Positions 47,159 through 64,000 of a stretch of 64,000 bases of DNA are shown piece by piece. The stretch comes from an archaeon (GTDB lineage: Archaea > Nanobdellota > Nanobdellia > Pacearchaeales > GW2011-AR1), in contig JABIDS010000003.1 of NCBI GenBank assembly GCA_018651605.1, positions 26,342 to 90,341 on the forward strand, written 5' to 3'. The notes under the pieces are model-generated. The model was not told the DNA's origin. It saw nothing but the letters and a program-made list of their open reading frames with translations, and searched no databases. How positions within the stretch are numbered: position 1 is the first letter of the stretch; each line of letters opens with the position of its first letter. A program made the position numbers and the translations under genes.

Positions 47159-47188
47159 ACAAACATTGAGAATAAAGCCTTTTTAAAA

Positions 47189-47617: not shown

Positions 47618-47651
47618 ATAAAAACCACAACCAACCCACTTAAAAACTTAT

Positions 47652-49341: not shown

Positions 49342-49489
49342 AAAAACTAAAATTCATATTTAAAGATTATTGCATTTTTACGATTACTTTGCATAGGTAG
49401 GGTTAGAATTCTATCACAGTAATATTTTTAAAATAAGAAATTTCTATAATTACCAGAAGATAACTTCCTAGATATCTCTAAGAATTAAA

Positions 49490-50561: not shown

Positions 50562-50642
50562 AATCTTTCTTGAAAATAAGACTTTAAAAATCTAACTAAA
50601 CATAGAAATATTTATAAAAACAAACAATCAAAGATTTACAAC

Positions 50643-50957
50643 ATGAAAACAAATAATCTTTCACATTTAGTAGATGAAATAAAATCAATGGAAGAATACG
50701 CCAAATCAAAAAATGAGATAGAATATACTTCAGGACAAGTAGCAGAGTTTATGGGAGTAAGTGTAAGAACAATAGCAAAACTATTTGATGATAAGCATCT
50801 AAAAGGATATAGGAGACCCGGTTCTGGACATAGAAGAATCCCTACCAAACATTTATTAGATTTCATAAACAAAAATGGATTTGAACACGCATTTAAAAGT
50901 TACCAAAATCATTTAATCCGAAAAGGATATATTCCTCAAAATTCACCAAAAAATTAA
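50643..50957 (+). CDS. Excisionase-like (HTH_17/MerR-type) DNA-binding protein
   Basis: YTSGQVAEFMGVSVRTIAKLFD...LKGYRRPGSGHRRIP. Confidence 0.8.
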   Translation: MKTNNLSHLVDEIKSMEEYAKSKNEIEYTSGQVAEFMGVSVRTIAKLFDDKHLKGYRRPGSGHRRIPTKHLLDFINKNGFEHAFKSYQNHLIRKGYIPQNSPKN

Positions 50958-51045
50958 TTCAACAATAAATTTATATCTAATTTTTTTATCTTAATCAATA
51001 ATTTCTCACACAAAACTTTATAAACAACCCCCCAATTAATTTAAC

Positions 51046-51435
51046 ATGGCTTTCAAATTAATTAATGCAGTTCAAGCAAGACCTGGAACAGCAATTCTAG
51101 TTGATGGAACACCTTGCATTGTAAAATCAAACGATATTTCTAAAACCGGAAAACACGGGCATGCTAAATGTAGAATAGAAGCAATCAGCGTCCTCGACGG
51201 AAAAAAGAAAGTTTTCGTAACAGGCGGACATGAAAGACTTGAATGCCCAATGATTCTAAAAAACAAAGGACAAATCCTATCAATCGCAGAAGATAAAGCA
51301 AGTGTCATGGATTTAGAATCTTTCGAAACAATAGAAATCGCAATCCCAGAAGAAATGAAAGAAGACCTAAAAGACGGCGACCAAGTCGAATATTGGGATG
51401 CTGAAGGAAATAAGATTATTAAGAGAAAAATATAA
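51046..51435 (+). CDS. eif5a: Translation factor aIF5A
   Basis: SKTGKHGHAK hypusine motif. Confidence 0.96.
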   Translation: MAFKLINAVQARPGTAILVDGTPCIVKSNDISKTGKHGHAKCRIEAISVLDGKKKVFVTGGHERLECPMILKNKGQILSIAEDKASVMDLESFETIEIAIPEEMKEDLKDGDQVEYWDAEGNKIIKRKI

Positions 51436-51519
51436 TTCTAAAATCTAAAACTATTTTCTAAAAAATTCCTACCAATTCTCAAAAGAAAACACAAACCCAT
51501 GATTATTATATAATAACAA

Positions 51520-51620
51520 ACCAATCTTCTCATCTTCATAAAATAAATTCCTAAGAAGATATCAAGAATTGGGGCGAAAATGGGAAAGTGCGAAGCACGG
51601 ATTTTCGCGGAGGAGGAAAT
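51520..51620 (+). repeat. Intergenic repeat element containing the GCGAAGC hairpin
   Basis: Shares 32 identical bp with 39561 and the upstream motif with 30150 and 5870. Confidence 0.8.
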
Positions 51621-51716
51621 AAAAACCAATTCCCAAAAGCTTTTAAACCCTAATTCTAATTTAATAATATAACTACGTTAACCTAACATCACCAAAAAAT
51701 CAAATAGATTTTTTGA

Positions 51717-51811
51717 ATCCTAAAACGCTTTGCGTTTTAGTGGATTTTAACAAAGTTAAAATCGCAAATTCAGGGGGTGACTTGTTAGGGGGACGGAGTC
51801 CCCATACGAAC
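51717..51811 (+). promoter_or_regulatory. Three-hairpin leader element directly before rpl40e
   Basis: Homologous over about 95 nt to 55181..55277, with compensatory changes. Confidence 0.7.
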
Positions 51812-51976
51812 ATGGCAACAAAATTACCAGCAGCACAAGCAAGATTATACAAAGATATGTTCGTCTGCCAACACTGCAAAACAAAAACACGAGCAAATCC
51901 ACGAAAAATCATAGAAGGAAAAATCAGATGTAGAAAGTGTCTCAAAAAAGCATTCAGACCAATTAGAAAGAAATAA
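51812..51976 (+). CDS. rpl40e: 50S ribosomal protein L40e
   Basis: MATKLPAAQARL...VCQHC...RCRKC...FRPIRKK; start at 51812 rather than 51713. Confidence 0.9.
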   Translation: MATKLPAAQARLYKDMFVCQHCKTKTRANPRKIIEGKIRCRKCLKKAFRPIRKK

Positions 51977-52057
51977 TTCTCAATTACTAACAATTCTCAA
52001 CAAACATTTAAAAGCTCAAAAAACTTCTACTAATCAAAGAGGCCACCCAAACTAAAA

Positions 52058-53521
52058 ATGTCATTTTACATATACGATATAACATTCCTAGTAATATTCA
52101 CAGCATTAGTAATCCACTTCCTCTACAAAAGAAGAACCAAATTAGAAAAAGAAGGAATCATGTATCTTTATAGAACACAAGTCGGAGTCAAATTCATCGA
52201 CTACGTAGGAACAAAATACAAAAAAACAATAAAATTCTTAGGATTCTTAGGAGTAATCTCAGGCTATTTCCTAATGGTAGCAATGATGTATTTCCTAGGA
52301 AGATTAATCTACATTTATTTATTTGTCCCAGACATTGTAAGAGCAATTAAAATTCCTCCATTAATGCCCCTAGTTCCATACCTCCCAGAAGTTTTTAAAA
52401 TAGATTTCCTACCAAGTTTTTATTTCACTTATTGGATAATCGCAATAGCAGTTATTGCAGTCTTTCATGAATTCGCACATGGAATAGTTGCAAGAGCTTA
52501 CGGAATAAAAGTAAGGACAACAGGCTTCGGATTCCTAGGCCCATTCCTAGCAGCATTCGTAGAACCAGACGAAAAACAAATGGAATCAAAATCAAGATAC
52601 CAACAAATCGCAGTCCTTTCAGCAGGAACATTCACAAACCTCATCCTAGCAATCCTATTCTTCCTATTACTCGCATTATTTTTCATAGTAACTTTCGTAC
52701 CAGCAGGAGCAATGTTCAATGTCTACGCATCTCAACCAGTAGAAATAAATTCAATAACAAACATCGGAGGAACACCTATAGCAGATCCTACAACAGGAAA
52801 CATAATAGACATAATAGACAAAAACAATTTATCAAACAATTTAATCCTAGGCTCAAATGGAAACACATTAGAACTAACCAAAATAACCGCCAACAACAAA
52901 TCATACTACATGGAAATGGAAATTTTAAAAAATCAACTAATTCAAGACACAGACTACGTCTTCCTATATCTCGACACATCCGCAATAAAAACAGGATTAA
53001 AAGGCGCAATAATAGAGATAGATAATAAAAAAATAAACACTCATGATGACCTATCAAGAGTATTAGAACAATACAATCCAGGAGATACTGTTCAAATAAA
53101 AACAAGAGTAAAAAAAGAAATTTTCAATTATGAAATAGAATTAATAGAGCACCCTGAAGATTCAACAAAACCAATGATTGGAATAGGATACAATTTACAA
53201 AAAGGTGGCATGACAACCACAATCACAGAATTCTTTAATTTCTTTAGAGAACCTGCAACAGATTATCAACCAAGATTTAATGTTGACCTAGTTGAATTCA
53301 TATACGACCTTATCTGGTGGCTAGCCCTAATAAATCTCAGCGTTGCATTAGTTAATATGTGGCCAGTCGCAATCTTCGACGGAGGTCGAATGTTCATGCT
53401 AACAATCTGGGCAATCACAGGAAGCGAGAAATTCGGAGAACTTGCATTCAAAACAATGACTTACTTAATTTTAGGTTCCTTATTACTCCTAATGTTTGGC
53501 TGGGTTATTGCGATTTTTTAA
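52058..53521 (+). CDS. Site-2 protease (M50) with PDZ-like domain
   Basis: HEFAH, AFVEPDE, AGTFTN, NMWPVAIFDGG. Confidence 0.92.
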   Translation: MSFYIYDITFLVIFTALVIHFLYKRRTKLEKEGIMYLYRTQVGVKFIDYVGTKYKKTIKFLGFLGVISGYFLMVAMMYFLGRLIYIYLFVPDIVRAIKIPPLMPLVPYLPEVFKIDFLPSFYFTYWIIAIAVIAVFHEFAHGIVARAYGIKVRTTGFGFLGPFLAAFVEPDEKQMESKSRYQQIAVLSAGTFTNLILAILFFLLLALFFIVTFVPAGAMFNVYASQPVEINSITNIGGTPIADPTTGNIIDIIDKNNLSNNLILGSNGNTLELTKITANNKSYYMEMEILKNQLIQDTDYVFLYLDTSAIKTGLKGAIIEIDNKKINTHDDLSRVLEQYNPGDTVQIKTRVKKEIFNYEIELIEHPEDSTKPMIGIGYNLQKGGMTTTITEFFNFFREPATDYQPRFNVDLVEFIYDLIWWLALINLSVALVNMWPVAIFDGGRMFMLTIWAITGSEKFGELAFKTMTYLILGSLLLLMFGWVIAIF

Positions 53522-53555
53522 AAGGATTTTTAAATTAATAATAACTTCTAAAACC

Positions 53556-54533
53556 ATGCTATCTAAAAAACTTCAAGAAACCCTAAAAAAACAACACTAT
53601 GTTTTAATTGGAAAACATTCAGCAGTTCAAATATGCAGATGGACAAAAAATTCATTAAGAGAACAAGGACACTGTTATAAACAACAATTCTATGGAATAA
53701 AATCCCACCTATGTTGTCAAATGTCTCCCAGCGTAGGTTTCTGCCAAAACAGATGCTTACATTGTTGGAGGGCAATAGAATTAACAGAAGGCAACAAAAT
53801 GTCAGAAAAACAAACAGACAATCCAGAAACAATTATTCAAGGTTGCATTCAAGCACAACAAAAACTTCTCAACGGATTTAAAGGAAACCCAAAAACAAAT
53901 CTAACAAAATTCAAACAAGCACAAGAACCAGAAAACTTCGCAATCTCCCTAACAGGAGAACCAACACTCTATCCAAAACTAGGAGAACTAATCCAACAAC
54001 TAAGGGAAAAAGGAAAATCAACATTCATAGTAACTAACGGACTTCAACCAGAAACACTAAAAAAACTTCAAAAAAACAAACAACTCCCAACTCAACTTTA
54101 TGTCTCACTAAACACTCCAAACGAAAAAATGTTCAAAAAATGGCACAAATCAACAATAAAAGATGCATGGAAAAAACTAAACCAAACTCTCAACCTTTTC
54201 CCAAAACTAAAAACAAGAAAAGTAATAAGAATGACATTAGTAAAAAACGCAAACACAAAACCAGAACACATTGAACAATATTCAGAACTAATAAAAAAAG
54301 CTCAACCAGATTTCATCGAAGTCAAAGGTTTCATGTCTGTAGGATTCTCAAGAAACCGAAAAGGAATGGGTTACGACGCAATGCCAACCCACGAAGAAAT
54401 AAGAGACTATGCAGAAAGAATAGCAATATCCCTAAAAAATAATTACAAAATCTTAGATGAACACGAACGCTCAAGAGTAATTCTTATAGGAAAAGATAAA
54501 AGTAAGATGAAAATTAAAAAATCAGAAATTTAA
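53556..54533 (+). CDS. taw1: 4-demethylwyosine synthase (radical SAM, TYW1/Taw1)
   Basis: HSAVQICRWT, CYKQQFYGI, CQNRCLHCWR, AISLTGEPTLYP. Confidence 0.95.
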   Translation: MLSKKLQETLKKQHYVLIGKHSAVQICRWTKNSLREQGHCYKQQFYGIKSHLCCQMSPSVGFCQNRCLHCWRAIELTEGNKMSEKQTDNPETIIQGCIQAQQKLLNGFKGNPKTNLTKFKQAQEPENFAISLTGEPTLYPKLGELIQQLREKGKSTFIVTNGLQPETLKKLQKNKQLPTQLYVSLNTPNEKMFKKWHKSTIKDAWKKLNQTLNLFPKLKTRKVIRMTLVKNANTKPEHIEQYSELIKKAQPDFIEVKGFMSVGFSRNRKGMGYDAMPTHEEIRDYAERIAISLKNNYKILDEHERSRVILIGKDKSKMKIKKSEI

Positions 54534-54754
54534 TCCGCTTTCTCAACCCTATAAGAACAACTAATCTTCCCACCCCCAACATAACAAGGCCCCTTATCAA
54601 TAGTAGCAATACCTTGAATATTTCCATTAATATCTCTCAAATATGCTTCACTAGGAATTTCTGCCCCCTCGTCAAAATCAAGATTATTCAATTCACCAAA
54701 TTCAAGACCCTTTAATTCTTCAGTAAGCAAAACTATTTCACCTAAGGCCATCAC
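54530..54754 (-). CDS. Hypothetical protein
   Basis: Short ORF coupled to the upstream CARF-like gene. Confidence 0.5.
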   Translation of the reverse strand: MMALGEIVLLTEELKGLEFGELNNLDFDEGAEIPSEAYLRDINGNIQGIATIDKGPCYVGGGKISCSYRVEKAD

Positions 54755-55098
54755 ATAAACACCAATCCATCTTTTGTTAAAGCAGTAAACCTAATCCCTA
54801 CAGGCAACGACAACAAAGCAGAAATCAAAGCCATATGTTCCTTACCACTTCCAGATGCAATCGACAAACCAACTTCAGTCCCATTAATCTTTCCCTTCAA
54901 TTTCCCCATTATCTCATCCTTTAATTCAATCAATGAACCACCACTAGTCTCAACAAATTCAAAATTCTTTTCAACAGTAAATTGCTTAGCAAAATTATCC
55001 CCAACCAAAATTATATTATCCCAATCATTATTCTTAATAACTCCAGCAACCTGTCCCCAACTTCCTTTTCCTGAACTAACCAATGCAACTAATTCCAT
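54751..55098 (-). CDS. Small Rossmann-fold, possibly CARF-like protein
   Basis: LVALVSSGKG...GLSIASGSGKEHMALISALL resembles the CARF beta-strand-SGG-K-helix motif. Confidence 0.55.
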   Translation of the reverse strand: MELVALVSSGKGSWGQVAGVIKNNDWDNIILVGDNFAKQFTVEKNFEFVETSGGSLIELKDEIMGKLKGKINGTEVGLSIASGSGKEHMALISALLSLPVGIRFTALTKDGLVFM

Positions 55099-55180
55099 AA
55101 TCTAAAAACTCAAGTTAAATTTATAAGCTTATATGTGGTAGAATAAATATAAAAAGAGTATAAATTAAATTCACTTCATC

Positions 55181-55277
55181 ATCCTAAAATGCATGTATTT
55201 TAGTAAGAGATTTTAATAATATTAAAATCGCAAAATTAGGAAGGTGACTTGTTAGGAAACCTAGGTTTCATACGAAA
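55181..55277 (+). promoter_or_regulatory. Three-hairpin leader element directly before the HTH gene
   Basis: Homologous to 51717..51811. Confidence 0.7.
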
Positions 55278-55739
55278 ATGAAAGACATACCACTATCAGA
55301 AATAACATTAAGAAAATACGAAAAACCATCAAACTTAGAGGAACGAGAACTCATAAGAAAAATCTGTCTCTCACTCGGACTTCTTCAATTAGCAGATTCA
55401 AGAGATGTAATCGTCGACATACTCCTCACATTAACACAAGCAAACAAAAACAAACAATCACTCAGCTCAGAAGAAATAAAAACAAAAGTAGAAGAATCAA
55501 GAAAAAAATACAGCCTAGAAACAAAAGGACTTGCAGAGTCAAACATCCGAAGACAACTAAAAAGATTAAGAGATGCAATGCTAATAGAAAAAACAAATAA
55601 TAAATATCATCTAACAGAAAACTTACCATTAAGCGAAATTTTCACAAACAATATAGAACGATTCATCATCCCTCAAATCATCGAGAGAATAAAAGAATAT
55701 TTAGATGAACTCAATAAGGATAAAACCCCTCAACAATAA
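55278..55739 (+). CDS. Winged-HTH protein
   Basis: EITLRKYEKP...CLSLGLL...SNIRRQLKRLRDAMLIEK. Confidence 0.7.
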   Translation: MKDIPLSEITLRKYEKPSNLEERELIRKICLSLGLLQLADSRDVIVDILLTLTQANKNKQSLSSEEIKTKVEESRKKYSLETKGLAESNIRRQLKRLRDAMLIEKTNNKYHLTENLPLSEIFTNNIERFIIPQIIERIKEYLDELNKDKTPQQ

Positions 55740-55772
55740 AACATAAATATAAAATAAAAAAAATAAAACAAA

Positions 55773-55958
55773 CTATCTTTTCTTTTTCTTTTTAGCTGCT
55801 TTCTTCTTCGCTGGTTTTTTCTTAGCAGCCTTCTTTTTAGCTGGTTTTTTCTTAGCAACTTTAGCAAGTTTCTTCTTCAATCCATCAATCTCCTTAGTTT
55901 GTTTCTTAAGAGATTTTAATCGAATATCACATTGCTTTACAGTTTTTGGTTTTTTCAT
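55773..55958 (-). CDS. Small Lys/Ala-rich histone-H1-like basic protein
   Basis: (AKKKPAKKKA)2 repeats; strong SD GGAGGT just upstream of the ATG. Confidence 0.7.
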   Translation of the reverse strand: MKKPKTVKQCDIRLKSLKKQTKEIDGLKKKLAKVAKKKPAKKKAAKKKPAKKKAAKKKKKR

Positions 55959-56256
55959 TTTACCTCCTTTTAATTTTTTAAATTATTTATAAAATATTAT
56001 CGTAAACATTATATTTAAATCTTTCTTTCACAAAATATATTTTAAAAAACAATTGTTAAAAAATATTTTTCTTAAAATCTATTTTAATCAAACAAATAAA
56101 ACTAAAAAATACAAACCTTTAAAAACCATCTAACCCAATTAAAATCAACCAATAACTACATCATTTGGCTTCAAAATTCTAGAAGCTCAAGTGCATAGGT
56201 AGGAGGTAACAAGGAACACAAAGCATCGAACATGCTAAACTTCCAAGGGAAACAAA

Positions 56257-56886
56257 ATGTCAACAGAAGAAAATTTTGAAAAAGCAATAAAGAAATTAAG
56301 AGCAACAGAGAACAAAAGAAAGTTCAACCAAACAATAGACTTAGTTATAAATCTAAAAGAATTCGACGTGCGAAGAGAGTCATTCAATCTTTTTGTAACA
56401 TTACCAAACAAAATTAAAGAAAAAAAGATTATAGGAATTTTTGAAAAAAAATCAACAATCATAGACACAATTACAAAAGACGAATTTCCAAAATACAAAG
56501 AAAAAAAAGATATGAAAAAATTAATCAAATCTTACGACGCCTTTATTGCAAACGCTAAATTAATGCCAGCAATAGCAACAAGCTTTGGAAGAGTCTTAGG
56601 TCCTGCAGGAAAAATGCCATCACCTCAATTAGGAATCCTACCAAACGAAGAAGAAAAAATAGTCCAAGCAATGATAAAAAAAGTAAATTCAACAGCAAGA
56701 ATAATGGTAAAAGAAGCAAGCATAAAAGCAGGCATTGGAAAAGAATCATTATCAGACAAAGAATTATTAGACAATCTTGTAACTGCTTATTCCCAAATAA
56801 TGGACGCATTACCTAAGAAAAGAGATAACATAAGAAACATTAAACTTAAATTAACAATGGACAAACCAGTTCCAGTAGATTTCTAA
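56257..56886 (+). CDS. rpl1: 50S ribosomal protein L1
   Basis: KRKFNQTIDLVINLK, GRVLGPAGKMP, KLTMDKP. Confidence 0.95.
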   Translation: MSTEENFEKAIKKLRATENKRKFNQTIDLVINLKEFDVRRESFNLFVTLPNKIKEKKIIGIFEKKSTIIDTITKDEFPKYKEKKDMKKLIKSYDAFIANAKLMPAIATSFGRVLGPAGKMPSPQLGILPNEEEKIVQAMIKKVNSTARIMVKEASIKAGIGKESLSDKELLDNLVTAYSQIMDALPKKRDNIRNIKLKLTMDKPVPVDF

Positions 56887-56887
56887 A

Positions 56888-57796
56888 ATGGCATCATCAC
56901 ACACTATAAAACAAAAGCAAGTAGATAGCCTAGCTGAAAAAATAAAAAACTCAAAAACCCTAATGATAGTTTCAATAAAAAGCTTACCCTCAAAACAATT
57001 CCAAGATATAAAAAAATCAATAAGAGAACAAGCAACAATCCAAGTAGCTAAAAAAAATATCTTAATAAGAGCATTAAAAGCATTTGGAAAAGAATCAATT
57101 TTACAATTAGATAAACACATAGACGATGGATGTGCATTCGCAATATCTAACACAGAAGGTTATGAACTAGCTGGATTAATTTCTAAAAACAAAACACCAG
57201 TTTTTGCAAAAGCAGGACAAGAAGCACCAGAAGACATTGAAGTTAAAGACGGCCCAACAGATTTAATGCCAGGCCCAGCAATTTCAGAACTAGGAGCATT
57301 AGGACTTCAAGTTGCAGTTGAAGACGGAAAAATCTCAATAAAAAAATCAAAAGTTGTAATAAATAAAGGACAAACAATTAACGCAGCATCAGCATCAATC
57401 TTACAAAAACTAAACATACAACCATTCACAATAGGACTAGAACCAGTAGCAATTTACGACATAGAATCAGAAAAAATCTACACAGACATAAAAATAGACC
57501 CAGAAGAAACAGCAACAAATTTAAGAGAATCAGCATCAAAGGCATTAGGATTTGCACAAAAAATCGCATACTATGCAAAAGAAACAATTGGATACTTACT
57601 TGCAAAAGCAAACACAAACGCAGAACATCTAAACAAATTACAACCTTCAGAAGAAACACATTCAGAAGAAACAAAAACCGAAACACCTTCAAAAGAATCT
57701 AAAGAAACTGAAGAAAAACCAAAAGAAGAATCTAAAGATGAAACACCTTCAGAAGAATCAAAAACAGAGGACAAACCAAAGGAGCAAGAAAAATGA
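56888..57796 (+). CDS. rpl10: 50S ribosomal protein L10/P0
   Basis: VAKKNI, AKAGQEAPEDIEV, GPTDLMPGPAISELG. Confidence 0.95.
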   Translation: MASSHTIKQKQVDSLAEKIKNSKTLMIVSIKSLPSKQFQDIKKSIREQATIQVAKKNILIRALKAFGKESILQLDKHIDDGCAFAISNTEGYELAGLISKNKTPVFAKAGQEAPEDIEVKDGPTDLMPGPAISELGALGLQVAVEDGKISIKKSKVVINKGQTINAASASILQKLNIQPFTIGLEPVAIYDIESEKIYTDIKIDPEETATNLRESASKALGFAQKIAYYAKETIGYLLAKANTNAEHLNKLQPSEETHSEETKTETPSKESKETEEKPKEESKDETPSEESKTEDKPKEQEK

Positions 57797-58026
57797 CAAT
57801 TAATAACAACCCCCCAATAGATTTTGCAACAGTTATGAGATTATTAGATCGTATTGAACATTTTGAACCAGAGGTAGCACGTAGAGAATGTGAAACATAT
57901 AAAGGAGCATTATCAATACAATATCAACAAAGCCCTACACAAGCTAACAAAAATGCACTATTATTAGTTACAGATTTTCAATCATCACTTTACCCCTCAA
58001 TTAAATTACCGGAGGAAACCGCTTAG
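57793..58026 (+). CDS. Orphan ORF inserted between rpl10 and rpl12
   Basis: ATGA overlap with rpl10; stop 1 nt before the rpl12 ATG. Confidence 0.55.
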
Positions 58027-58027
58027 A

Positions 58028-58324
58028 ATGGAATATGTTTACGCAGCACTATTATTGCACAAACTAGGAAAAGAAGTTAATGAAGAATCTATCACAAAAG
58101 TTCTTCAAGCTAGTGGAGCAGAAATAGACGACTCAAAAGTCAAAAGCTTAACAGCTAGTCTTAAGGATGTAGATATCGAAGCAGAACTTGCCAACGCAGT
58201 AGTTGCAAGTGCAGCATCAGCACCAGCAGCATCAGCTGATGGAGCAGAAGCAAAACCTGCAGAAGAAGCACCTGAAGAAAAGAAAGAAGAGTCAACAGCT
58301 GGTTTAAGCTCTCTGTTTGGTTAG
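58028..58324 (+). CDS. rpl12: 50S ribosomal protein L12/P1
   Basis: [11 protein letters not shown]...AGLSSLFG. Confidence 0.97.
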
Positions 58325-58366
58325 GTTATTTTTTATTTTTCAACCTTTCTAGGTTGAAAACTTTTT
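58325..58366 (+). terminator. T-tract plus hairpin after rpl12
   Basis: TTATTTTTTATT, then TTTTCAACCT-TTCT-AGGTTGAAAA. Confidence 0.55.
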
Positions 58367-58498
58367 AATACCAAACAGAGAAACCTAGCGATAGTTAGGA
58401 CGACTTCTTTATAGAATTTTATATAATAATTAATAGAATAGATTTATCTTTAAAAAATCTCAACAACCAAATCCATCACCACCACCAACCCCCGCCAC

Positions 58499-59170
58499 TT
58501 ACTCACACTTCTCCACAGCCTTATACTTCACAACACTCTTCGTCTTCACAACATCCTTATACTTTGTCACTAATTTAGTTTTAGGAATCATCCTATAATC
58601 TCTATCATAATCACAAACTCTTCTCTTCTCTGGAGTCACATCACAAAAACATTTAATATCTCCAGAACCAACATCAAAAATACCAGAAACAGATTCTGTA
58701 GAACCAGAACGAATATCCAATGTTTCTTTATCATAATCAGAACCAGAACATCCACCACCAACACACTTAATCCCAAACTTAACTGAAAAATCCCCAGACT
58801 TAGAATCCCGATTCTTAACATCACACTCAACCCTCACTTTATTCGAAGAACTGCCCCCATCACACTCAACAATCTCCCTTCTATACCTCAACCTCCGACT
58901 ATCACAATCATAATCCCAAGAATATCCTTTTTCATAATATGTTTCCTCATATGAATAAGGTTCCCTAACAACATAACTCTCAACATCATGATAAGGCACA
59001 CTAACATATTTACAATTCTCCCCACCCCCAATAACATTCCCTGCAATCCCCAAAAAACCCCCAGAACCCCTAAACACCAAATATAAAACAAAACCCACTA
59101 ATAAAACAGCAATAACAATAAGAACAACTAACAATATCGAAATAATCAAAGCCCTGTCTTCTCTTTCCAT
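58499..59170 (-). CDS. Membrane-anchored Cys-containing protein
   Basis: N-terminal TM, VPY/EPY repeats, Cys pairs. Confidence 0.65.
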   Translation of the reverse strand: MEREDRALIISILLVVLIVIAVLLVGFVLYLVFRGSGGFLGIAGNVIGGGENCKYVSVPYHDVESYVVREPYSYEETYYEKGYSWDYDCDSRRLRYRREIVECDGGSSSNKVRVECDVKNRDSKSGDFSVKFGIKCVGGGCSGSDYDKETLDIRSGSTESVSGIFDVGSGDIKCFCDVTPEKRRVCDYDRDYRMIPKTKLVTKYKDVVKTKSVVKYKAVEKCE

Positions 59171-59289
59171 CAAAAACAAAAGACACAATCTTATTTAAAA
59201 CTTCTTCATAGTTTTCATAGAAAGGGAGTGGTGAAAAAGATAGGGAAAATTGTTTTAACAAAATGGGAGCATAAGAAGAGGCATTAGAA

Positions 59290-59598
59290 TTAATGTATAT
59301 CTATATTTTTATTTAATGTAATAACATCATGTTGTTCATTCTCATTAATTTTTTGCAAATTTATTAATTTAAAATATTTTAAAACATTTAAATCGTCTTG
59401 AGTATTACAATGAAATAACTTATCTAGCTTTTCTTTATTTATAGGGTTCTGATCTATCAAAAGTTGCAAGATTTTTCTTCTTCTGTCTGTTAAAACATTA
59501 TCCATTTGTTCTGGAGGTATAACTAATATCTCCCTATCTTGATTCATTCTTTCTGGTATTTTAAAAATCTTTTCTATAATTTCAACAGTATTATTCAT
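59290..59598 (-). CDS. HTH protein, putative antitoxin
   Basis: NVLTDRRRKILQLL...DDLNVLKYFKLI, similar to the 32527 family; overlaps upstream gene. Confidence 0.6.
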   Translation of the reverse strand: MNNTVEIIEKIFKIPERMNQDREILVIPPEQMDNVLTDRRRKILQLLIDQNPINKEKLDKLFHCNTQDDLNVLKYFKLINLQKINENEQHDVITLNKNIDIH

Positions 59599-59890
59599 CT
59601 TCCATGTTCTCCATAAATTGTTTCCAATTCTTTGATAGGTAATCTATTGCATTACCTAAACCTCCATCGATTTTTTCCTCTCTTTTTTGTTTGCCATTTC
59701 TAGCCATAAAATGAATGTGACTCCCCTTGTTATCATAATTATCACAATGACAAATTTCTAAATCCTTGCCATTATCTAAAATTAATAATGCAACACAATA
59801 TAAAAAACTTCCGTTTTCATGCAATTTTTTTACACATAGTTTTGGGAAATAAGTTCCATTACCTATTACAAATTCTATTTTATTATACAT
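59591..59890 (-). CDS. DUF6516-like protein, putative toxin
   Basis: EICHCDN...GSHIH motif; coupled to the HTH gene. Confidence 0.5.
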   Translation of the reverse strand: MYNKIEFVIGNGTYFPKLCVKKLHENGSFLYCVALLILDNGKDLEICHCDNYDNKGSHIHFMARNGKQKREEKIDGGLGNAIDYLSKNWKQFMENMEDE

Positions 59891-59944
59891 GATAAATAGT
59901 CAACAATTAAGTTTTTAAAGATTATTACAATTTTTGTTTACAAG

Positions 59945-59968
59945 TAAGTGCTGGCATGCCAGCACTTA
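59945..59968. promoter_or_regulatory. Perfect 24-bp palindrome
   Basis: TAAGTGCTGGCA|TGCCAGCACTTA. Confidence 0.6.
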
Positions 59969-60087
59969 GCTTCGTAAATATATAAACTTTTCTCAACCCA
60001 AAACATTTAAAACCTAACTATTTCTACTCTAATAAGTGTAAAAACAATACACAAACCTTATAACATTGTAAGGTTAAAAAAACAACT

Positions 60088-60168
60088 GCCTCCGTGGGAC
60101 AATGGTACTCCAACTGGCTTGAGACCAGTGCTCTTTTGGGCTTCCCGGTTCGATTCCGGGCGGGGGCG
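60088..60168 (+). tRNA. tRNA-Ser(UGA)
   Basis: GCCTCCG...ACTGG-CTTGAGA-CCAGT, long variable arm GCTC-TTTT-GGGC, GGTTCGATTCC, CGGGGGC-G. Confidence 0.92.
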
Positions 60169-60386
60169 TTTTTGGGCTGTAAGCCCAACACTTCCCACCC
60201 GAAATCGCAAGTGTGCTACATCTTCCCATGGTTCGATCGAGCATTTACATTTTTAATCCAACTCTACATTTATTTCAAAAATGTGGATGCGAGTAGGGCG
60301 GGGCGTTCCACACCAAAAACCACCCAACCCCAACAACTATATCCCACCACAAAAATACTTAAAAAACAATCAAACCTATCCTCAAC

Positions 60387-60878
60387 ATGAGCAAAAAAAC
60401 AATCGAGATATTACTGAGCCTTATTCTATTAACAGCATTACTTATTGGAACTGTATTAGTTCTTTCAGTAGATACAACAGCAGATAAAAAAACAATTAAA
60501 CCTTTAGAAAAACAAAACACAGAACAGACAAACATAATCCAACAAGGCGCAACTTACAATCAAATAAATTACCCTTGCATAAAGCAAGTTAAAACAATCC
60601 CATGTTTTAAAATAATTGAACAAACAAAATCAAAAGGAAAAAACAATTACCTAGAAAACCAAAAAACAATCTGCTATAAAAAAGAAGAATTACCACAAAC
60701 TAGATCAGACGGACAATATAAAGAAATCATCCAAGAAAAAACAAAATGTTACAGAGAAGAAATAAAAGGTTGCACCAAAACATTAATAGAAATAAGTTGC
60801 TTCGAAAAAATCCCTCAAACAACTAGCCCCGGACAATACCACCCTGAAAATTCAGTAAGAAGCGCTTGTTTTAATTAG
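60387..60878 (+). CDS. Membrane-anchored hypothetical protein
   Basis: N-terminal TM; internal repeat PQTxSxGQY. Confidence 0.6.
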   Translation: MSKKTIEILLSLILLTALLIGTVLVLSVDTTADKKTIKPLEKQNTEQTNIIQQGATYNQINYPCIKQVKTIPCFKIIEQTKSKGKNNYLENQKTICYKKEELPQTRSDGQYKEIIQEKTKCYREEIKGCTKTLIEISCFEKIPQTTSPGQYHPENSVRSACFN

Positions 60879-60939
60879 AATTCTTTTTTGAAAATTTACC
60901 CAAAACATTTTTATACCCTTTATTCTTAACAAACCCAAC

Positions 60940-61005
60940 ATGACTAGCAAAACCCAAACAAATCAAATCATCAATTCTATTATAGCTAGCATTATCATCA
61001 TTTAA
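60940..61005 (+). promoter_or_regulatory. Putative Ile-rich leader peptide MTSKTQTNQIINSIIASIIII
   Basis: 8 of 21 codons are Ile; TATA box about 25 nt upstream; hairpin at 61008..61029; precedes cimA-ileS. Confidence 0.7.
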
Positions 61006-61086
61006 ACGCAAGTTCAATAAAGAGCTTGCACCACAACCTTACCATGACTAATCTACACCCCAAAAACCAACAACCACACACCTAAA

Positions 61087-62754
61087 ATGACACATCCAAA
61101 AACCAACCCACCCTTAGAAATCTACGACTGCACCCTAAGAGAAGGAGAACAAGCAAAAGGAGCTAGCTTCACCTTAAAAAACCGACTAGAACTCTGCCAA
61201 CTTTTAGATGATTTCAAAGTAGACTACATTGAACTAGGATGGCCAATTGTCTCACAAGAAATAAGAGACGCATTCAAAATAGCATTAGAAAAAACAAAAT
61301 ACTCAAAAATAGTCGCCTTCGGCTCAACATCAAGAACCTCAGACCCACAACAAGACAAAAACCTAAATTCAATAATAGAAACAGGTGTCAAATACTCTTG
61401 CATCTTTGGAAAAACCCATCTCACACACATCCAAAAACAACTCAAAATCAGCCCAAATGAAAACCTAGAAAGAATTTCTCAAAGCATCGAATACCTAAAA
61501 CAAAACAACATAACAACATTTTATGACGCAGAACATTATTTCGACGGATTCAAAGACAATCCAGAATACGCTCTCCAAACTCTAACAACAGCAATACAAG
61601 CAGGAGCAGAAAGAGTCATCTTATGCGATACAAACGGAGGAATGTTACCAGAACAAGTAAAAGAAATCCTAAGCAAAACAAAAACACACTTAGAAAACAA
61701 AAACCTAAACTCCAAATTAGGCGTCCACTTTCACGACGACTGCAACTTAGCATTAGCAAACACTTTAGCATCACTTCCATACATCACACAAGTCCAAGGA
61801 ACAATCAACGGAATAGGAGAAAGAATCGGAAACCTAAATCTAACAACTTTCCTAGCAATTTACTTAGATAAACTCCATCCAACAACCCACCCAAACAATC
61901 CCTCCGAAGACACCAACCCCTCCACCAACCATCCCACCACCCCCTCCACCAACAACCTAAACATAAACCTTCAAGATTTAAAAAAAGTAAATAAAAAATC
62001 CTTCAGACTTTGTGGAATCACCATGCAAGAAAACCAACCATTTGTAGGAGACACAGCTTTTGCACATCGAGGCGGAGTCCACATAGATGCAATAAAAAAA
62101 GGAGCAAGCTACGAACACTCAACACCTGAAAAATTCGGAAACAAATCACGAATAATCCTAAACAGTTTAGGCGGAGCAAGCTCAGTCATAGAAGTTGCAA
62201 GACAATTCAATTATCATCTAGACAAAAAAGATCCAACATTCCAAGAAAAAACCCAACAACTCTTCAATGAATTAAGACAACACGAAAAAGCAGGATACGA
62301 TTCAGGAACCCACCCTGCAGAACAATTCCTACTAATTAATAAATATTTTGGAAACCATCAAAACCTATTCACAATAAAAAAATGGAAAGCAGAAAGTAAA
62401 AAAGAAAACAACAAAGAAACATCAGAATTCTACGCACTCTGCAAAATAAATCAAGAAACACTAGAAAGCCAAATCTCCCTTGAAGGAGGCCCAATAGAAG
62501 CAGGATTCAACACTCTAAAAGAAATACTCTCAAATAAATATCCTCAAGCAACCCTATTACACTTATCAGATTTCAAAGTAACAATCGCAAGAGAAAGCGA
62601 AGAAGAAAGCACAGTTAGAACAGAAATAAAATTCAAAAATGGAACAGAATTCTCAACAATCGGCGTAGACAGAAACATAATAGGCTCAGCAGTAGAAGCC
62701 CTAGAAAAAGGATTCAAATACCAAATTTTAAAAACACCAAACCCCAATTACTAA
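61087..62754 (+). CDS. cimA: Citramalate synthase (bacterial-type CimA, LeuA superfamily)
   Basis: YDCTLREGEQ, DAEHYFDGFK.NPEYALQTL, LCDTNGG, HFHDD, AFAHRGGVH, C-terminal regulatory domain. Confidence 0.88.
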   Translation: MTHPKTNPPLEIYDCTLREGEQAKGASFTLKNRLELCQLLDDFKVDYIELGWPIVSQEIRDAFKIALEKTKYSKIVAFGSTSRTSDPQQDKNLNSIIETGVKYSCIFGKTHLTHIQKQLKISPNENLERISQSIEYLKQNNITTFYDAEHYFDGFKDNPEYALQTLTTAIQAGAERVILCDTNGGMLPEQVKEILSKTKTHLENKNLNSKLGVHFHDDCNLALANTLASLPYITQVQGTINGIGERIGNLNLTTFLAIYLDKLHPTTHPNNPSEDTNPSTNHPTTPSTNNLNINLQDLKKVNKKSFRLCGITMQENQPFVGDTAFAHRGGVHIDAIKKGASYEHSTPEKFGNKSRIILNSLGGASSVIEVARQFNYHLDKKDPTFQEKTQQLFNELRQHEKAGYDSGTHPAEQFLLINKYFGNHQNLFTIKKWKAESKKENNKETSEFYALCKINQETLESQISLEGGPIEAGFNTLKEILSNKYPQATLLHLSDFKVTIARESEEESTVRTEIKFKNGTEFSTIGVDRNIIGSAVEALEKGFKYQILKTPNPNY

Positions 62755-62755
62755 A

Positions 62756-64000
62756 ATGCAAGACTTTAATAAAATCCAAGAAAAAGCAAGAAACATCTGG
62801 AAGAAAAACAAAACCAAAATAAAACAAGCAATAGATGACAATCCTAAAAAACCAATTTTCTCATTCTTAGAAGGCCCACCAACAGCAAACGCACCACCAG
62901 CCCTCCACCATCTAGAAGTCAGAACATTCAAAGATATAATTTGTAAATACAAATACATGAAAGGATTCTCAGTTCCAAGAAAAGGAGGATGGGACACACA
63001 TGGATTACCAGTCGAAGTTCAAGTAGAAAAACAACTAGGATTAAAATCAAAAAAAGAAGTCGTAGAATACGGAATGGAAAAATTCATAAAAAAATGCAGA
63101 GCAAACGTTTTCTCAAACATCGAAGACTGGAACAAATCAACAGAAGAACTAGGTTACTGGGTAGACTTAGAAAACCCCTACATAACTTTAGACAACAATT
63201 ATATTGAAAGCGTTTGGTGGAGCCTAAAAGAACTTTACAATAAAAAATTACTATACAAAGGATTCAAGGTAGTCCCTTACTGCCCAAGATGCGGAACACC
63301 ATTATCAAGCCACGAAGTCTCACAAGGATACAAAGACGTAAAAGAAGATTCAGTCTACATAGCATTCAAATTAAAACAAAAACCAGAATACATATTAGCA
63401 TGGACAACAACTCCTTGGACACTTCCAGGAAACGTAGCACTAGCAGTTGGAAAAGATTTAGATTATGTAAAAGTAGAACTTCCAGACAAAGACAAATTAA
63501 TCTTAGGAAAAGAAAAACTAGACTTAATACAAGGAGACTACAAAATAATAGAAAAACTAAAAGGAAAAGATTTACTAGGATTAGAATATGAACCTTTATT
63601 CAACATAAAAGAATTACAAAATGAAAACTCTCATAAAATAATAAAAGCAGATTTCGTAACAACAGAAGAAGGAACAGGAGTAGTCCACACTGCAGGAATG
63701 TATGGTGAAGACGACTACGAAGTTTGCAAAGAAAACAACATCCCTCTAGTCCACACAGTAGGAGAAGACGGAAAATTCAATGAACTAGTTCCACAATGGC
63801 AAGGAAAATTCGTCAAAGGAGCAGAACAAGAAATAATAGAAGACCTAAAACAAAGACACCTACTATTCAAAAAAGAAAAATTCTCACACACTTACCCATT
63901 CTGTTGGAGATGCGACTCACCATTATTATATTACGCAGTTGACTCATGGTTCATAGCAGTCACAAAACTAAAAAAAGAAATGATTAATGCAAATAAAAAA
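62756..64000 (+). CDS. ileS: Isoleucyl-tRNA synthetase (type 2), 3'-truncated by the window (absent from ORF track)
   Basis: FLEGPPTANAPPALHH, GWDTHGLPVE, YCPRCGTPLSSHEV, AWTTTPWTLPGN, GTGVVH, HTYPFCWRCDSPL. Confidence 0.96.
   Translation, partial: MQDFNKIQEKARNIWKKNKTKIKQAIDDNPKKPIFSFLEGPPTANAPPALHHLEVRTFKDIICKYKYMKGFSVPRKGGWDTHGLPVEVQVEKQLGLKSKKEVVEYGMEKFIKKCRANVFSNIEDWNKSTEELGYWVDLENPYITLDNNYIESVWWSLKELYNKKLLYKGFKVVPYCPRCGTPLSSHEVSQGYKDVKEDSVYIAFKLKQKPEYILAWTTTPWTLPGNVALAVGKDLDYVKVELPDKDKLILGKEKLDLIQGDYKIIEKLKGKDLLGLEYEPLFNIKELQNENSHKIIKADFVTTEEGTGVVHTAGMYGEDDYEVCKENNIPLVHTVGEDGKFNELVPQWQGKFVKGAEQEIIEDLKQRHLLFKKEKFSHTYPFCWRCDSPLLYYAVDSWFIAVTKLKKEMINANKK

What the first reader, a model, noticed from the sequence alone, without database searches (positions are those of the whole stretch)
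60905..61086. Ile-rich leader peptide and hairpin upstream of cimA-ileS: candidate ribosome-mediated attenuator in an archaeon
Seen: TTTTTATA box (about 60908), then 25 nt later an unannotated 21-codon ORF, MTSKTQTNQIINSIIASIIII* (8 Ile, last four consecutive). It is followed at once by the stem GCAAGTTC-AATAAA-GAGCTTGC and a G-poor spacer to cimA, which is coupled to ileS. Established: CimA starts the threonine-independent isoleucine route, and bacterial attenuators use leaders rich in the cognate amino acid. Inference: Ile-tRNA supply is sensed by ribosome stalling. No U-tract follows the stem, so control may be translational or factor-dependent (aCPSF1/FttA) rather than intrinsic termination. 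Such control is poorly documented in archaea.
Basis: partly seen in the sequence, partly recalled or inferred. Interest (0 to 1): 0.85.

Follow-up and report, generated by a model that had tools for sequence, protein, structure and literature searches.

The report
Isoleucine-sensing leader peptide before archaeal ileS
A tiny gene made mostly of isoleucine codons, followed at once by an RNA hairpin, sits in front of the isoleucyl-tRNA synthetase operon in this and dozens of related DPANN archaea, and looks like a ribosome-based amino-acid sensor of a kind so far described only in bacteria.

Summary
A 21-codon ORF (60940-61005, MTSKTQTNQIINSIIASIIII*) lies 24 nt after a TATA box. An 8-bp hairpin (61008-61029) starts 2 nt after its stop. 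A cimA-like gene follows, coupled to the genome's only ileS.

It is not chance. It has the most Ile-rich tail of 6,173 short ORFs in the 1.0-Mb genome. A covariance model finds the element in 27 of 49 genomes of the genus, 26 of them with the Ile-type leader. It also occurs in 5 other genera of the family and, in a variant form, in 15 of 23 ileS loci of a second family.

The constant partner is ileS, not cimA. The genes in between vary (cimA-like, ilvA-like, small ORFs), and the rest of the isoleucine pathway was not found.

Across 31 leaders only the Ile frame stays open, the stop type varies, and Ile codons vary synonymously. The hairpin covaries (6 of 8 pairs).

Best reading: a leaderless Ile-codon uORF whose ribosome occupancy next to the hairpin tunes downstream expression. 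The output step is unresolved: translation is favoured, transcription termination possible. No RNA data exist and nothing is shown experimentally. My searches of the held paper library found no archaeal precedent.

The parts
60908..60915 (+). TATA box (TTTTTATA) of the leader transcript. Relatives have TTTAAAAA(C/T)CC.
   Evidence: Read directly. The box is conserved in the alignment of 13 relatives. Box start to leader ATG is 28-32 nt in 23 of 35 elements, mode 29; here it is 31-32. In this genome TATA-like 7-mers peak at 28-30 nt before the ATG of long ORFs: 89 of 525 ORFs against a background of about 2-3 per position. The leader mRNA is therefore inferred to be leaderless or nearly so.
60940..61005 (+). 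Leader ORF, 21 codons, MTSKTQTNQIINSIIASIIII*. It has 8 Ile, and the last four sense codons are all Ile (60991-61002).
   Evidence: It ranks 1 of 6,173 short ORFs for Ile in the tail. Homologous leaders occur in 26 genomes of the genus, 5 other genera and a second family. Across 31 leaders, 229 of 372 tail residues are Ile. The other two frames are open in 0 and 1 of 31. Stops are TAA 23, TGA 5, TAG 3.
61008..61029 (+). RNA hairpin GCAAGTTC / AATAAA / GAGCTTGC, starting 2 nt after the leader stop.
   Evidence: -10.1 kcal/mol. RNAalifold on 13 sequences gives 8 pairs, 3 with compensatory changes. On 41 model-aligned sequences 96.3% of 326 cells pair, 6 of 8 pairs change on both sides, 0 of 500 shuffles reach this, and slid controls pair in 45.8% of cells or fewer. 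The gap from stop to stem is 0-3 nt in 35 of 35 elements.
61044..61085 (+). ORF2, 13 codons (MTNLHPKNQQPHT*). It starts 14 nt after the hairpin and its stop lies 1 nt before the cimA ATG. It has no SD in this genome.
   Evidence: In relatives the same position holds an SD (AGGA/GGAG) and then either the cimA ATG or an ORF2 of 16-150 codons. Translation of ORF2 here is inferred, not shown.
61087..62754 (+). cimA-like gene, 555 aa (HMGL-like, HCS_D2 and LeuA_dimer domains).
   Evidence: TIGR00977 citramalate synthase scores 391.6 bits against a cut-off of 450. The nearest solved structures are homocitrate, citramalate and isopropylmalate synthases. The rest of the pathway was not found.
62756..64000 (+). 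ileS (isoleucine--tRNA ligase). The 5' part runs off the window. The ATG lies 1 nt after the cimA stop.
   Evidence: TIGR00392 scores 483 bits on the 414-aa fragment. It is the only IleS-like gene in the genome by tblastn; the next hits are 24-31% identical.

Best explanation
This is a cis-acting isoleucine sensor built from a leaderless upstream ORF.

Transcription starts about 30 nt after the TATA box, at or within a few bases of the leader AUG. Ribosomes translate a short peptide whose only constant feature is a run of Ile codons ending at the stop codon. A conserved hairpin starts 0-3 nt after that stop.

When charged tRNA-Ile is scarce, ribosomes dwell on the last Ile codons. There their footprint covers the 5' arm of the hairpin and keeps it open. 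When tRNA-Ile is plentiful, they pass and leave, and the hairpin stays folded. The state of the hairpin sets expression of what follows: an SD-led ORF2 or cimA, then, by stop/start coupling, the essential ileS.

I think the output is most likely at translation initiation of the next ORF. In the second family the 3' arm of the hairpin is itself the Shine-Dalgarno sequence.

Shown: the anatomy, its conservation, the coding constraint, hairpin covariation, and the exclusive link to ileS. Inferred: leaderless start, stalling, direction of regulation, and output level.
For: (1) Conservation with ileS.
- Model R1 hits 27 of 49 genus genomes. 26 of them carry an Ile-type leader.
- Downstream of those 26 leaders lie cimA (13), small ORF then ileS (12), or ilvA-like then ileS (1).
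- ileS follows cimA in 7 of 14 loci, as far as the fetched DNA reaches.
- 9 of 9 downstream synthetase fragments score best as TIGR00392 ileS.
- 5 further hits in 5 other genera of the family again precede IleS-like genes.
- 15 of 23 ileS loci in family f31 have a ...IISIII* leader.
- The other two class-I synthetase genes of G000 have no cognate-rich short ORF upstream.

(2) The ORF is read as codons.
- Positions -1 to -4 are Ile in 27, 29, 26 and 24 of 31 leaders.
- ATT/ATA/ATC are used 178/106/28 times, close to the genome's own ratio.
- All three stop codons occur.
- The alternative frames are open in 0 and 1 of 31.
- Length varies from 18 to 53 codons with the frame kept.

(3) The enrichment is Ile-specific, not general hydrophobicity.
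- Tails hold 229 Ile against 23 L+V+F+M, out of 372 residues.
- Divergent leaders have only 7-10 hydrophobic residues, e.g. ...SIIAIII*.

(4) Geometry.
- The stop-to-stem gap is 0-3 nt in 35 of 35 elements.
- Modelling a footprint on the last Ile codon raises the unpaired fraction of the 3' arm from 0.01 to 0.41.

(5) The hairpin is real RNA structure.

(6) SD link.
- An SD-like motif starts -3 to +2 nt from the stem end in 31 of 35 elements.
- In f31 the predicted hairpin's 3' arm overlaps the SD-like motif in 14 of 15, by my reading of the dot-brackets.
- There the median SD unpaired probability rises from 0.20 (free) to 0.39-0.42 with a ribosome at the end of the leader.

(7) Promoter spacing equals that of ordinary leaderless genes of this genome.

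(8) A bacterial precedent for exactly this logic exists: leaderless poly-Cys short ORFs in mycobacteria (10.1101/834739, abstract and section 11 read).
Against: - There are no expression, ribosome-profiling or 5'/3'-end data. No RNA run is listed.
- In the window's own family, equilibrium folding gives no SD unmasking: median SD unpaired is 0.46 free against 0.41 stalled.
- The window itself has no SD and no T-run after the stem, so the output step here is the least clear of all.
- No conserved antiterminator was found. There is only a partly conserved GCUAGC/GCUAGC long-range pairing.
- In f31 the sequestering arm starts 4-6 nt after the stop. A ribosome on the last Ile codon would barely reach it, and a terminating ribosome reaches it as well or better. 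That leaves the sign of regulation open.
- RNAalifold on a MAFFT alignment of the 15 f31 elements found no consensus pairs.
- A paralogous leader with a mixed L/I/V tail and the same hairpin precedes genes of unknown function in 4 genomes. Two more matches were listed by cmsearch only (G022, G024) and I did not read them. That form looks more like a generic hydrophobic peptide.
- Ile is a common residue in a 32% G+C genome.
- 22 of 49 genus genomes, and 29 of 30 ileS loci sampled from other families, show no such element.
Confidence: 0.6

Rival explanations
1. Same Ile-sensing leader, but the output is premature transcription termination. The hairpin, with the T-rich tract after it or with a factor such as aCPSF1/FttA, stops RNA polymerase unless a ribosome on the terminal Ile codons prevents it. 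This is the archaeal counterpart of classical attenuation.
For: - A stable, covarying hairpin sits between the leader and the genes.
- T5-T6 follows within 24 nt of the stem in 11 of 35 elements, e.g. AGGATTTTTTC.
- Archaeal polymerases terminate at oligo-T, and FttA acts on ribosome-free RNA (recalled, not from a call).
Against: - 24 of 35 elements, including the window, have a T-run of 4 or fewer.
- The T-rich stretch coincides with the SD-ATG spacer.
- No alternative antiterminator is conserved.
- Terminator-like hairpins are not enriched in this genome: 10 found against 10.3 expected in 20 kb.
- A stalled ribosome would have to be in place exactly when the polymerase reaches the tract, and no pause element is evident.
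- In f31 the hairpin is only 4-6 bp and is the SD itself.
Confidence: 0.22
2. The short ORF loads ribosomes rather than sensing anything. A leaderless 5' AUG recruits 70S ribosomes, which after termination reinitiate at the nearby SD-led ORF and so boost ileS translation. On this view the Ile-richness is incidental.
For: - The geometry is leaderless, and the stop lies about 35-45 nt before the next ATG.
- ORF2 is coupled to the main gene.
- Reinitiation at leader peptides has been proposed for bacteria (PMC4833913; search listing and abstract start only).
Against: - It does not explain why the tail is 62% Ile with almost no Leu, Val or Phe.
- It does not explain why the element is found only before ileS. 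The other two class-I synthetase genes of G000 lack it.
- It does not explain why a covarying hairpin abuts the stop codon.
Confidence: 0.08
3. The ORF encodes a functional small hydrophobic (membrane) peptide that merely shares an operon with ileS.
For: - The N-terminus is polar and the C-terminus hydrophobic.
- Some leaders have 17-19 hydrophobic residues.
- The paralogous L/I/V-tailed peptides look like membrane anchors.
Against: - The hydrophobic stretch is as short as 7-10 residues in many members.
- The composition is Ile plus Ser/Ala only.
- The N-terminal halves are not conserved, and 30-codon insertions are tolerated.
- The stop-to-hairpin distance is conserved instead.
- The partner is strictly ileS across two families, while ileS itself has been replaced by types only 34-40% identical.
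Confidence: 0.06
4. The ORF is a chance product of A+T-rich intergenic sequence.
For: The genome is 32% G+C. ATH triplets are frequent.
Against: - It ranks 1 of 6,173 short ORFs.
- It is conserved in more than 50 loci at 43-65% CimA identity.
- The frame and the stop position are kept.
Confidence: 0.01

Closest known systems
Leaderless poly-cysteine short ORFs of mycobacteria (Cys 'ribulon'; Canestrari et al., 10.1101/834739)
   Same: - A leaderless short ORF is the first cistron.
- It has a run of codons for one amino acid.
[quoted passage not shown] This is translational attenuation without a terminator (abstract and section 11 read).
- The f31 variant here has the SD in the hairpin.
   Different: - The domain of life differs (archaeon).
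- The amino acid is Ile.
- The target is an aminoacyl-tRNA synthetase rather than biosynthetic genes.
- The codon run abuts the stop codon.
- In the window's family the SD lies next to the stem, not inside it.
- Nothing here is tested experimentally.
Classical ribosome-mediated transcription attenuators (trp, his, leu, ilvGMEDA, and pheST for a synthetase)
   Same: - A short leader peptide is rich in the cognate amino acid.
- A hairpin lies before the structural genes.
- In pheST the target is an aminoacyl-tRNA synthetase. The pheST case is mentioned in PMC1262725 (passages read); the rest is recalled.
   Different: - There is no conserved terminator/antiterminator pair.
- A U-tract of 5 or more occurs in only 11 of 35 elements.
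- The control codons sit at the very end of the ORF, against a single hairpin.
- The promoter is archaeal, with a leaderless start.
cat/cmlA and ermC translational attenuation
   Same: A ribosome stalled in a short leader ORF melts a hairpin next to or over the SD of the downstream gene (recalled, and mentioned in 10.1101/834739 section 11).
   Different: The stall signal there is a drug plus the nascent peptide. Here it would be the supply of one charged tRNA.
T-box riboswitches upstream of ileS (Firmicutes; SD-sequestering form in Actinobacteria, PMC1262725)
   Same: The regulated gene (ileS) is the same, the physiological signal (uncharged or scarce tRNA-Ile) is the same, and the actinobacterial form acts by sequestering the SD (passages read).
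   Different: There is no T-box structure. Rfam gives nothing at gathering score in the window, and only hits with E above 1 at 60850-61150. Sensing here would go through the ribosome, not through direct tRNA binding.

Membership tests
Classical leader-peptide transcription attenuator | Short translated leader ORF enriched in codons of the amino acid that the operon serves | tested here: met
   8 of 21 codons here are Ile. Across 31 leaders, 229 of 372 tail residues are Ile. The downstream gene is ileS. Translation itself is inferred from frame conservation.
Classical leader-peptide transcription attenuator | Intrinsic terminator (hairpin followed by a U-tract) between the leader and the genes | tested here: not met
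   The hairpin is present and covaries. A T-run of 5 or more follows within 24 nt in only 11 of 35 elements and is absent in the window.
Classical leader-peptide transcription attenuator | Mutually exclusive antiterminator structure controlled by ribosome position | tested here: not met
   No conserved alternative pairing to either arm was found. Only a GCUAGC/GCUAGC long-range stem appears, in part of the genus.
Translational attenuator (erm/cat type; mycobacterial leaderless Cys short ORFs) | Hairpin that sequesters the SD of the next ORF | tested here: inconclusive
   Family f31: the 3' arm overlaps the SD-like motif in 14 of 15 (my reading), and free SD unpaired is 0.20. Window's family: the SD abuts the stem (31 of 35) but is not sequestered in equilibrium folds (0.46 against 0.41). 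The window has no SD.
Translational attenuator (erm/cat type; mycobacterial leaderless Cys short ORFs) | The stall site is placed so that the ribosome footprint overlaps the hairpin arm | tested here: met
   The terminal Ile run ends at the stop. The stop-to-stem gap is 0-3 nt in 35 of 35. In f31 it is 4-6 nt, which is marginal. The footprint size is recalled, not measured.
Translational attenuator (erm/cat type; mycobacterial leaderless Cys short ORFs) | Downstream expression responds to the stall signal | not testable with these tools
   The lineage is uncultivated and no RNA run is listed.
T-box riboswitch | Stem I with specifier loop, T-box sequence, antiterminator or anti-sequestrator | tested here: not met
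   Rfam 15 gives no match at gathering score in the window. At 60850-61150 only three hits appear, all with E of 1.1 or more and all to unrelated families.
Citramalate synthase CimA (TIGR00977) | Score above the curated equivalog cut-off, and a pathway context (LeuCD, LeuB, IlvBCDE) | tested here: not met
   The score is 391.6 bits against a cut-off of 450. LeuC was found in 1 of 5 genomes; LeuB, KARI, IlvD and IlvE in 0 of 5, at 73-88% completeness. The domain architecture does fit.
Isoleucine--tRNA ligase (TIGR00392) | Best-scoring family among the class-I synthetase models | tested here: met
   483 bits on the 414-aa fragment, against 198 for ValS. 9 of 9 fragments from relatives also score best as ileS. 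All are below the full-length cut-off because they are fragments.

The most novel reading that the evidence does not exclude
This would be the first ribosome-mediated, amino-acid-specific attenuation system in Archaea. It is an old element, shared by at least two families of Nanoarchaeota-type DPANN archaea. It uses a leaderless Ile-codon uORF, a stop-abutting hairpin and a coupled ORF2 to set the level of the cell's only IleS. It has been kept in place while the ileS gene behind it was replaced by distant types, and while Ile-related orphan enzymes (cimA-like, ilvA-like) were inserted under its control. For organisms that cannot make isoleucine and take it from a host, it would be their direct gauge of host-supplied isoleucine.
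Probability: 0.55. Interest if true: 0.88.

Novelty: new variant of a known kind. Interest (0 to 1): 0.8.

Why it matters
Leader-peptide attenuation is a textbook bacterial mechanism. Five full-text searches of the held library (I saw listings and the starts of abstracts only) returned no report of it in Archaea or in DPANN lineages.

Archaea couple transcription and translation, and many of their mRNAs are leaderless. So whether they use the ribosome as an amino-acid sensor is an open and testable question. This element gives a compact case of under 150 nt, with more than 50 natural variants. Those variants include ones with and without an SD in the hairpin, with and without T-tracts, and with insertions. 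Together they amount to a ready-made mutational series.

It also bears on how reduced, host-dependent archaea regulate anything at all. And it flags an unexplained link between ileS and orphan cimA-like or ilvA-like enzymes in isoleucine auxotrophs.

Tried and rejected
- RNA evidence: the look-up of sequencing runs listed five DNA-type marine metagenome runs and no RNA holder.
- Known RNA families: nothing at gathering score, and nothing meaningful at E up to 10.
- Classical antiterminator: I looked for pairing of leader sequence with either hairpin arm. GCUAGC in the leader is a one-mismatch complement of both arms, and it pairs perfectly with a second GCUAGC at codons 2-3 (in the MFE). The 5' copy is present in only about 10 of 26 genus leaders by my reading. 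I rejected it as a general feature.
- Pseudoknot between the UUCU in the loop and the AGGA after the stem: rejected on geometry (no linker). This is reasoning only.
- tRNA-anticodon mimicry by the loop: the loops are not conserved.
- DNA operator (inverted repeat): rejected, because the spacer varies from 3 to 12 nt and the stem extends by covariation.
- SD sequestration in the window's family: partition-function folding with and without a footprint gave no gain.
- RNAalifold on the f31 elements: no consensus pairs on the MAFFT alignment. The per-sequence folds were used instead, which is weaker evidence.
- Terminator scan of 44001-64000: no enrichment. Its sigma-70 promoter part does not apply to an archaeon.
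- Strict hairpin-plus-SD pattern across 401 genomes of the phylum: 7 genomes hit and the hits look random. One is in an unpublished genome (G508).
- ileS upstream regions in 30 loci from other families: 29 have no Ile-rich short ORF. The element is not general in the class.
- Hairpin motif scan in G000: no second copy.
- Other class-I synthetase genes in G000: no cognate-rich leader.
- Pfam on ORF2-type and Cys-rich small ORFs: nothing below E 0.005, and nothing over a cut-off.
- Supplements of papers were closed and not consulted. They could hold predicted archaeal uORF lists that I did not see.
Full report
**What is in the window**

- TTTTTATA lies at 60908-60915.
- A 21-codon ORF runs 60940-61005 (MTSKTQTNQIINSIIASIIII*). 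Its last four sense codons are ATT ATC ATC ATT.
- Two bases after the stop comes the stem GCAAGTTC / AATAAA / GAGCTTGC (61008-61029).
- A G-poor spacer follows.
- A 555-aa cimA-like ORF (61087-62754) has its stop 1 nt before the ATG of ileS (62756 onward).

One feature was missed. The spacer contains a 13-codon ORF2 (61044-61085) that ends 1 nt before the cimA ATG.

The cimA-like protein scores 391.6 bits on TIGR00977, against a cut-off of 450. It has HMGL-like, HCS_D2 and LeuA_dimer domains. The ileS fragment scores 483 bits on TIGR00392.

The genome is 1,002,107 bp in 24 contigs at about 32% G+C. It encodes TBP and an archaeal SSU rRNA. Records holding close CimA relatives are titled Nanoarchaeota, Candidatus Pacearchaeota or Candidatus Woesearchaeota MAGs. 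So this is a DPANN-type archaeon.

**Is it more than chance?**

In all six frames the genome has 6,173 ATG-to-stop ORFs of 15-60 codons. This one has the most Ile in its last 12 codons: 8, against one ORF with 7 and nine with 6. Isoleucine makes up 8.6% of long ORFs.

Of 123 short ORFs with a TATA-like box at the right distance, 5 are followed within 5 nt by a hairpin of -7 kcal/mol or better. This one is the strongest. The leader RNA folds with z = -4.9.

**Conservation near cimA**

A cimA-like orthologue (E of 1e-60 or better) occurs in 14 of 49 genomes of the genus. In 13 of those 14 loci an Ile-rich short ORF and a hairpin lie directly upstream. Examples are MTSKSLFNQKIKIISIIASIIIGIIIIII, MKASKINKIEIKSIISIISIMASIII and MTSNRINQIGISTIIIASIIII. 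Two leaders carry an in-frame insertion of about 30 codons. The exception, G023, has a related element about 600 nt further upstream.

In genome contigs, 18 of 22 archaeal cimA loci show the leader and hairpin. One more has the Ile run and hairpin but no in-frame ATG. None of the 6 bacterial loci searched has a hit. Some of these records are the same genomes as the G handles.

**The partner is ileS**

A covariance model (R1) was built from 13 elements (alignment A2). It hits 27 of 49 genus genomes. 26 of these carry an Ile-type leader. Downstream of those leaders lie:
- cimA in 13 genomes;
- a small ORF of 62-151 aa, then a class-I synthetase, in 12;
- a threonine-ammonia-lyase-like gene (TIGR01127, 171 bits against a cut-off of 379), then the synthetase, in 1.

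All 9 synthetase fragments scanned score best as ileS. They fall into three types only 34-40% identical to each other. Where the fetched DNA reaches, ileS follows cimA in 7 of the 14 loci.

G000 has a single IleS. Its other two class-I synthetase genes have plain leaderless promoters and no cognate-rich short ORF.

Outside the genus, a filtered scan of 151 genomes of the order gave 5 more hits in 5 other genera of the same family. Each is an Ile-run leader, a hairpin, and (with or without a small ORF) an IleS-like gene. I recognised the IleS there by likeness to the fragments; I did not scan them.

I also sampled ileS loci from 30 genomes of other families of the class. 29 had nothing and 1 (family f31) had MINTITKITSIII*. 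Within f31, 15 of 23 ileS loci carry leaders ending in ...IISIII* after a TTTAAATA box. They share the nucleotide motif ATTTCTATTATT with the window's family.

**Evidence that the ORF is translated and that Ile is the point** (31 Ile-type leaders)
- The last four sense positions are Ile in 27, 29, 26 and 24 of 31 leaders. 16 end in IIII.
- Tails of 12 residues hold 229 Ile, 50 Ser and 35 Ala, but only 23 Leu+Val+Phe+Met, out of 372.
- Ile codons are ATT 178, ATA 106 and ATC 28, close to genome usage. They never drift to ATG except rarely.
- Stop codons are TAA 23, TGA 5 and TAG 3, always at the same place.
- The other two frames are open in 0 and 1 of 31.
- N-terminal halves differ freely, and lengths run from 18 to 53 codons.
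- In divergent members the hydrophobic part is only 7-10 residues. That is too short for a membrane helix.

**The hairpin**

It starts 0-3 nt after the stop in 35 of 35 elements, and at 0 nt in 24. It has 7-12 pairs and a median of -10.6 kcal/mol.

It covaries. On 41 model-aligned sequences, 96.3% of 326 cells pair and 6 of 8 pairs show changes on both sides (43 cells). None of 500 shuffles reaches this. Slid registers pair in 45.8% of cells at most. One caveat: the alignment was fitted to the model. The independent MAFFT/RNAalifold run on 13 sequences gave the same 8 pairs, 3 of them compensatory.

An SD-like AGGA/GGAG starts -3 to +2 nt from the stem end in 31 of 35 elements, with an ATG about 7 nt later. 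The window is one of the 4 without it.

**Promoter**

The box TTTAAAAA(C/T)CC is conserved. It starts 28-32 nt before the leader ATG in 23 of 35 elements, with a mode of 29.

In G000, TATA-like 7-mers pile up at 28-30 nt before the ATG of 89 of 525 long ORFs, against 2-3 per position elsewhere. So the leader has the geometry of this organism's ordinary leaderless genes. In the window the spacing is 31-32 nt. A leaderless start is inferred, not shown.

**How it most likely works**

A ribosome with the last Ile codon in its A site should cover roughly 12 nt beyond that codon's first base. This footprint size is recalled from bacterial and haloarchaeal work, not measured here. It would cover the stop and most of the 5' arm.

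Imposing that footprint in partition-function folding raises the unpaired fraction of the 3' arm from 0.01 to 0.41. Scarcity of Ile-tRNA would therefore keep the hairpin open for longer.

What the open hairpin does is the weak point.
- In f31 the 3' arm of the small hairpin overlaps the SD-like motif of a 16-codon ORF2 that overlaps or abuts the ileS ATG. This holds in 14 of 15 by my reading. The SD is 0.20 unpaired when free, and 0.39-0.42 with a ribosome at the end of the leader. This is the design shown experimentally for mycobacterial leaderless poly-Cys short ORFs (10.1101/834739, abstract and section 11).
- In the window's family the SD only abuts the stem, and equilibrium folding shows no unmasking (0.46 against 0.41).
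- In the window itself there is no SD at all. ORF2 may depend on ribosomes coming from the leader.
- A transcriptional output is possible where T5-T6 follows (11 of 35), but it cannot be general.
- In f31 the sequestering arm begins 4-6 nt after the stop. A terminating ribosome would open it at least as well as a stalled one, so even the sign of the response is not settled.

I put about 0.8 on [quoted passage not shown]. I put about 0.6 on the fuller statement given as best explanation.

Searches of G000 and four relatives (73-88% complete) found aconitase/LeuC in 1 of 5. Isopropylmalate dehydrogenase, ketol-acid reductoisomerase, dihydroxy-acid dehydratase and class-IV aminotransferase were each found in 0 of 5. 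The same searches rang in 13-14 of 14 control genomes.

So the cimA-like enzyme is an orphan, and these archaea are most likely isoleucine auxotrophs. It is striking, and unexplained, that an ilvA-like gene takes the same slot in one genome.

**Comparison with known systems and novelty**

The element works like bacterial leader-peptide attenuators. It is closest to the mycobacterial leaderless Cys short ORFs and to cat/erm translational attenuators. It serves the same gene as T-boxes do in bacteria (PMC1262725, passages read).

It fails two defining features of classical transcription attenuators: the terminator U-tract and the antiterminator. It has no T-box.

Five literature searches (listings and abstract starts only) returned no archaeal or DPANN leader-peptide attenuator. 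PMC2965389 mentions archaea only in its reference list. Papers outside the held library and closed supplements could hold one.

I class it as a new variant of a known kind, with high interest because of the domain of life and the clean comparative signal.

**Limits**
- Everything is computational.
- Relatives are not independent samples.
- Many genomes are incomplete MAGs.
- The SD motifs in f31 were picked by my own regular expression and include weak ones.
- The footprint model is borrowed.

Noticed in passing
window 61087-62754, and G000 as a whole: The cimA-like gene is an orphan. LeuC was found in 1 of 5 genomes; LeuB, IlvC, IlvD and IlvE in 0 of 5 (G000 and four relatives). Yet the gene keeps the LeuA_dimer allosteric domain and sits under the Ile leader. 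In G008 an ilvA-like gene (TIGR01127, 171 bits) occupies the same slot.
   Followed up: partly
L068-L071 (G023, G014, G003, G010). Weaker R1 matches at L054:832-919 (G022) and L052:857-946 (G024), which I did not read.: A paralogous leader has a mixed Leu/Ile/Val tail (e.g. MAKDNTIIISSISLIVLAILILII*; tails L 20, I 13, V 8 of 48). It carries the same GCAAGC...GCTTGCAGGAG hairpin. It lies about 600 nt upstream of the Ile leader, before a small ORF and a Cys-rich ORF of 95-124 aa with no Pfam match.
   Followed up: partly
L043, L045, L046, L051, L055, L058, L061-L067 (ORF2 after the hairpin): The ORF right after the hairpin is often a small protein that starts with or contains MSL(D/E). Two kinds occur: helical with an ...EYY..L....Q.YI... 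motif, or Cys-rich. Pfam gave no match below E 0.005. Its function is unknown.
   Followed up: partly
L001, L045, L058, L067 and others: Three IleS types only 34-40% identical over their N-terminal 350-420 aa follow the same leader in different species of one genus. This suggests ileS was replaced while the regulatory element stayed.
   Followed up: partly
L180-L202 (family f31), about 30 nt before the ileS ATG: A TATA-like TTATTTAAAC lies inside ORF2. It is kept in the 8 f31 loci that lack the leader. So ileS there probably has its own promoter, and the leader transcript is an added, regulated input.
   Followed up: no
G000 contig C24, minus strand, 77294-77344 (L077:5295-5345): A Leu-rich short ORF, MNNKTLRLLNLKLLLL*, has a TATA-like box about 30 nt upstream and a hairpin starting right after its stop (-8.6 kcal/mol). 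It lies between an Alba-like gene (my reading of the sequence, not scanned) and a 60-aa Cys-rich ORF. It may be a second sensor of this kind, or it may be chance.
   Followed up: partly
window 58400-62200, especially 61030-61086 and the middle of the cimA-like ORF: There is a strong C-over-G skew (GC skew -0.3 to -0.7). C/A-rich low-complexity stretches occur: the spacer after the hairpin, an N-terminal extension of CimA (MTHPKTNPPL, where relatives have MTIE), and an internal HPTTHPNNPSEDTNPSTNHPTTPSTNN insert. The ATG of ORF2 may be the ancestral cimA start, displaced by such an insertion.
   Followed up: no
window 60087-60169: ARAGORN calls a tRNA-Ser(UGA). The Rfam scan at gathering score did not list it.
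   Followed up: no
G000 genome-wide: TATA-like 7-mers peak sharply at 28-30 nt before the first ATG of 89 of 525 long ORFs. SD-like motifs peak at 10-15 nt. So first genes are mostly leaderless and internal genes SD-led.
   Followed up: yes
window 60387-60878: The gene upstream of the leader encodes a 163-aa protein with an N-terminal hydrophobic segment and several Cys. It has no Pfam or NCBIfam match. In relatives the upstream neighbour is a different Cys-rich small protein.
   Followed up: no
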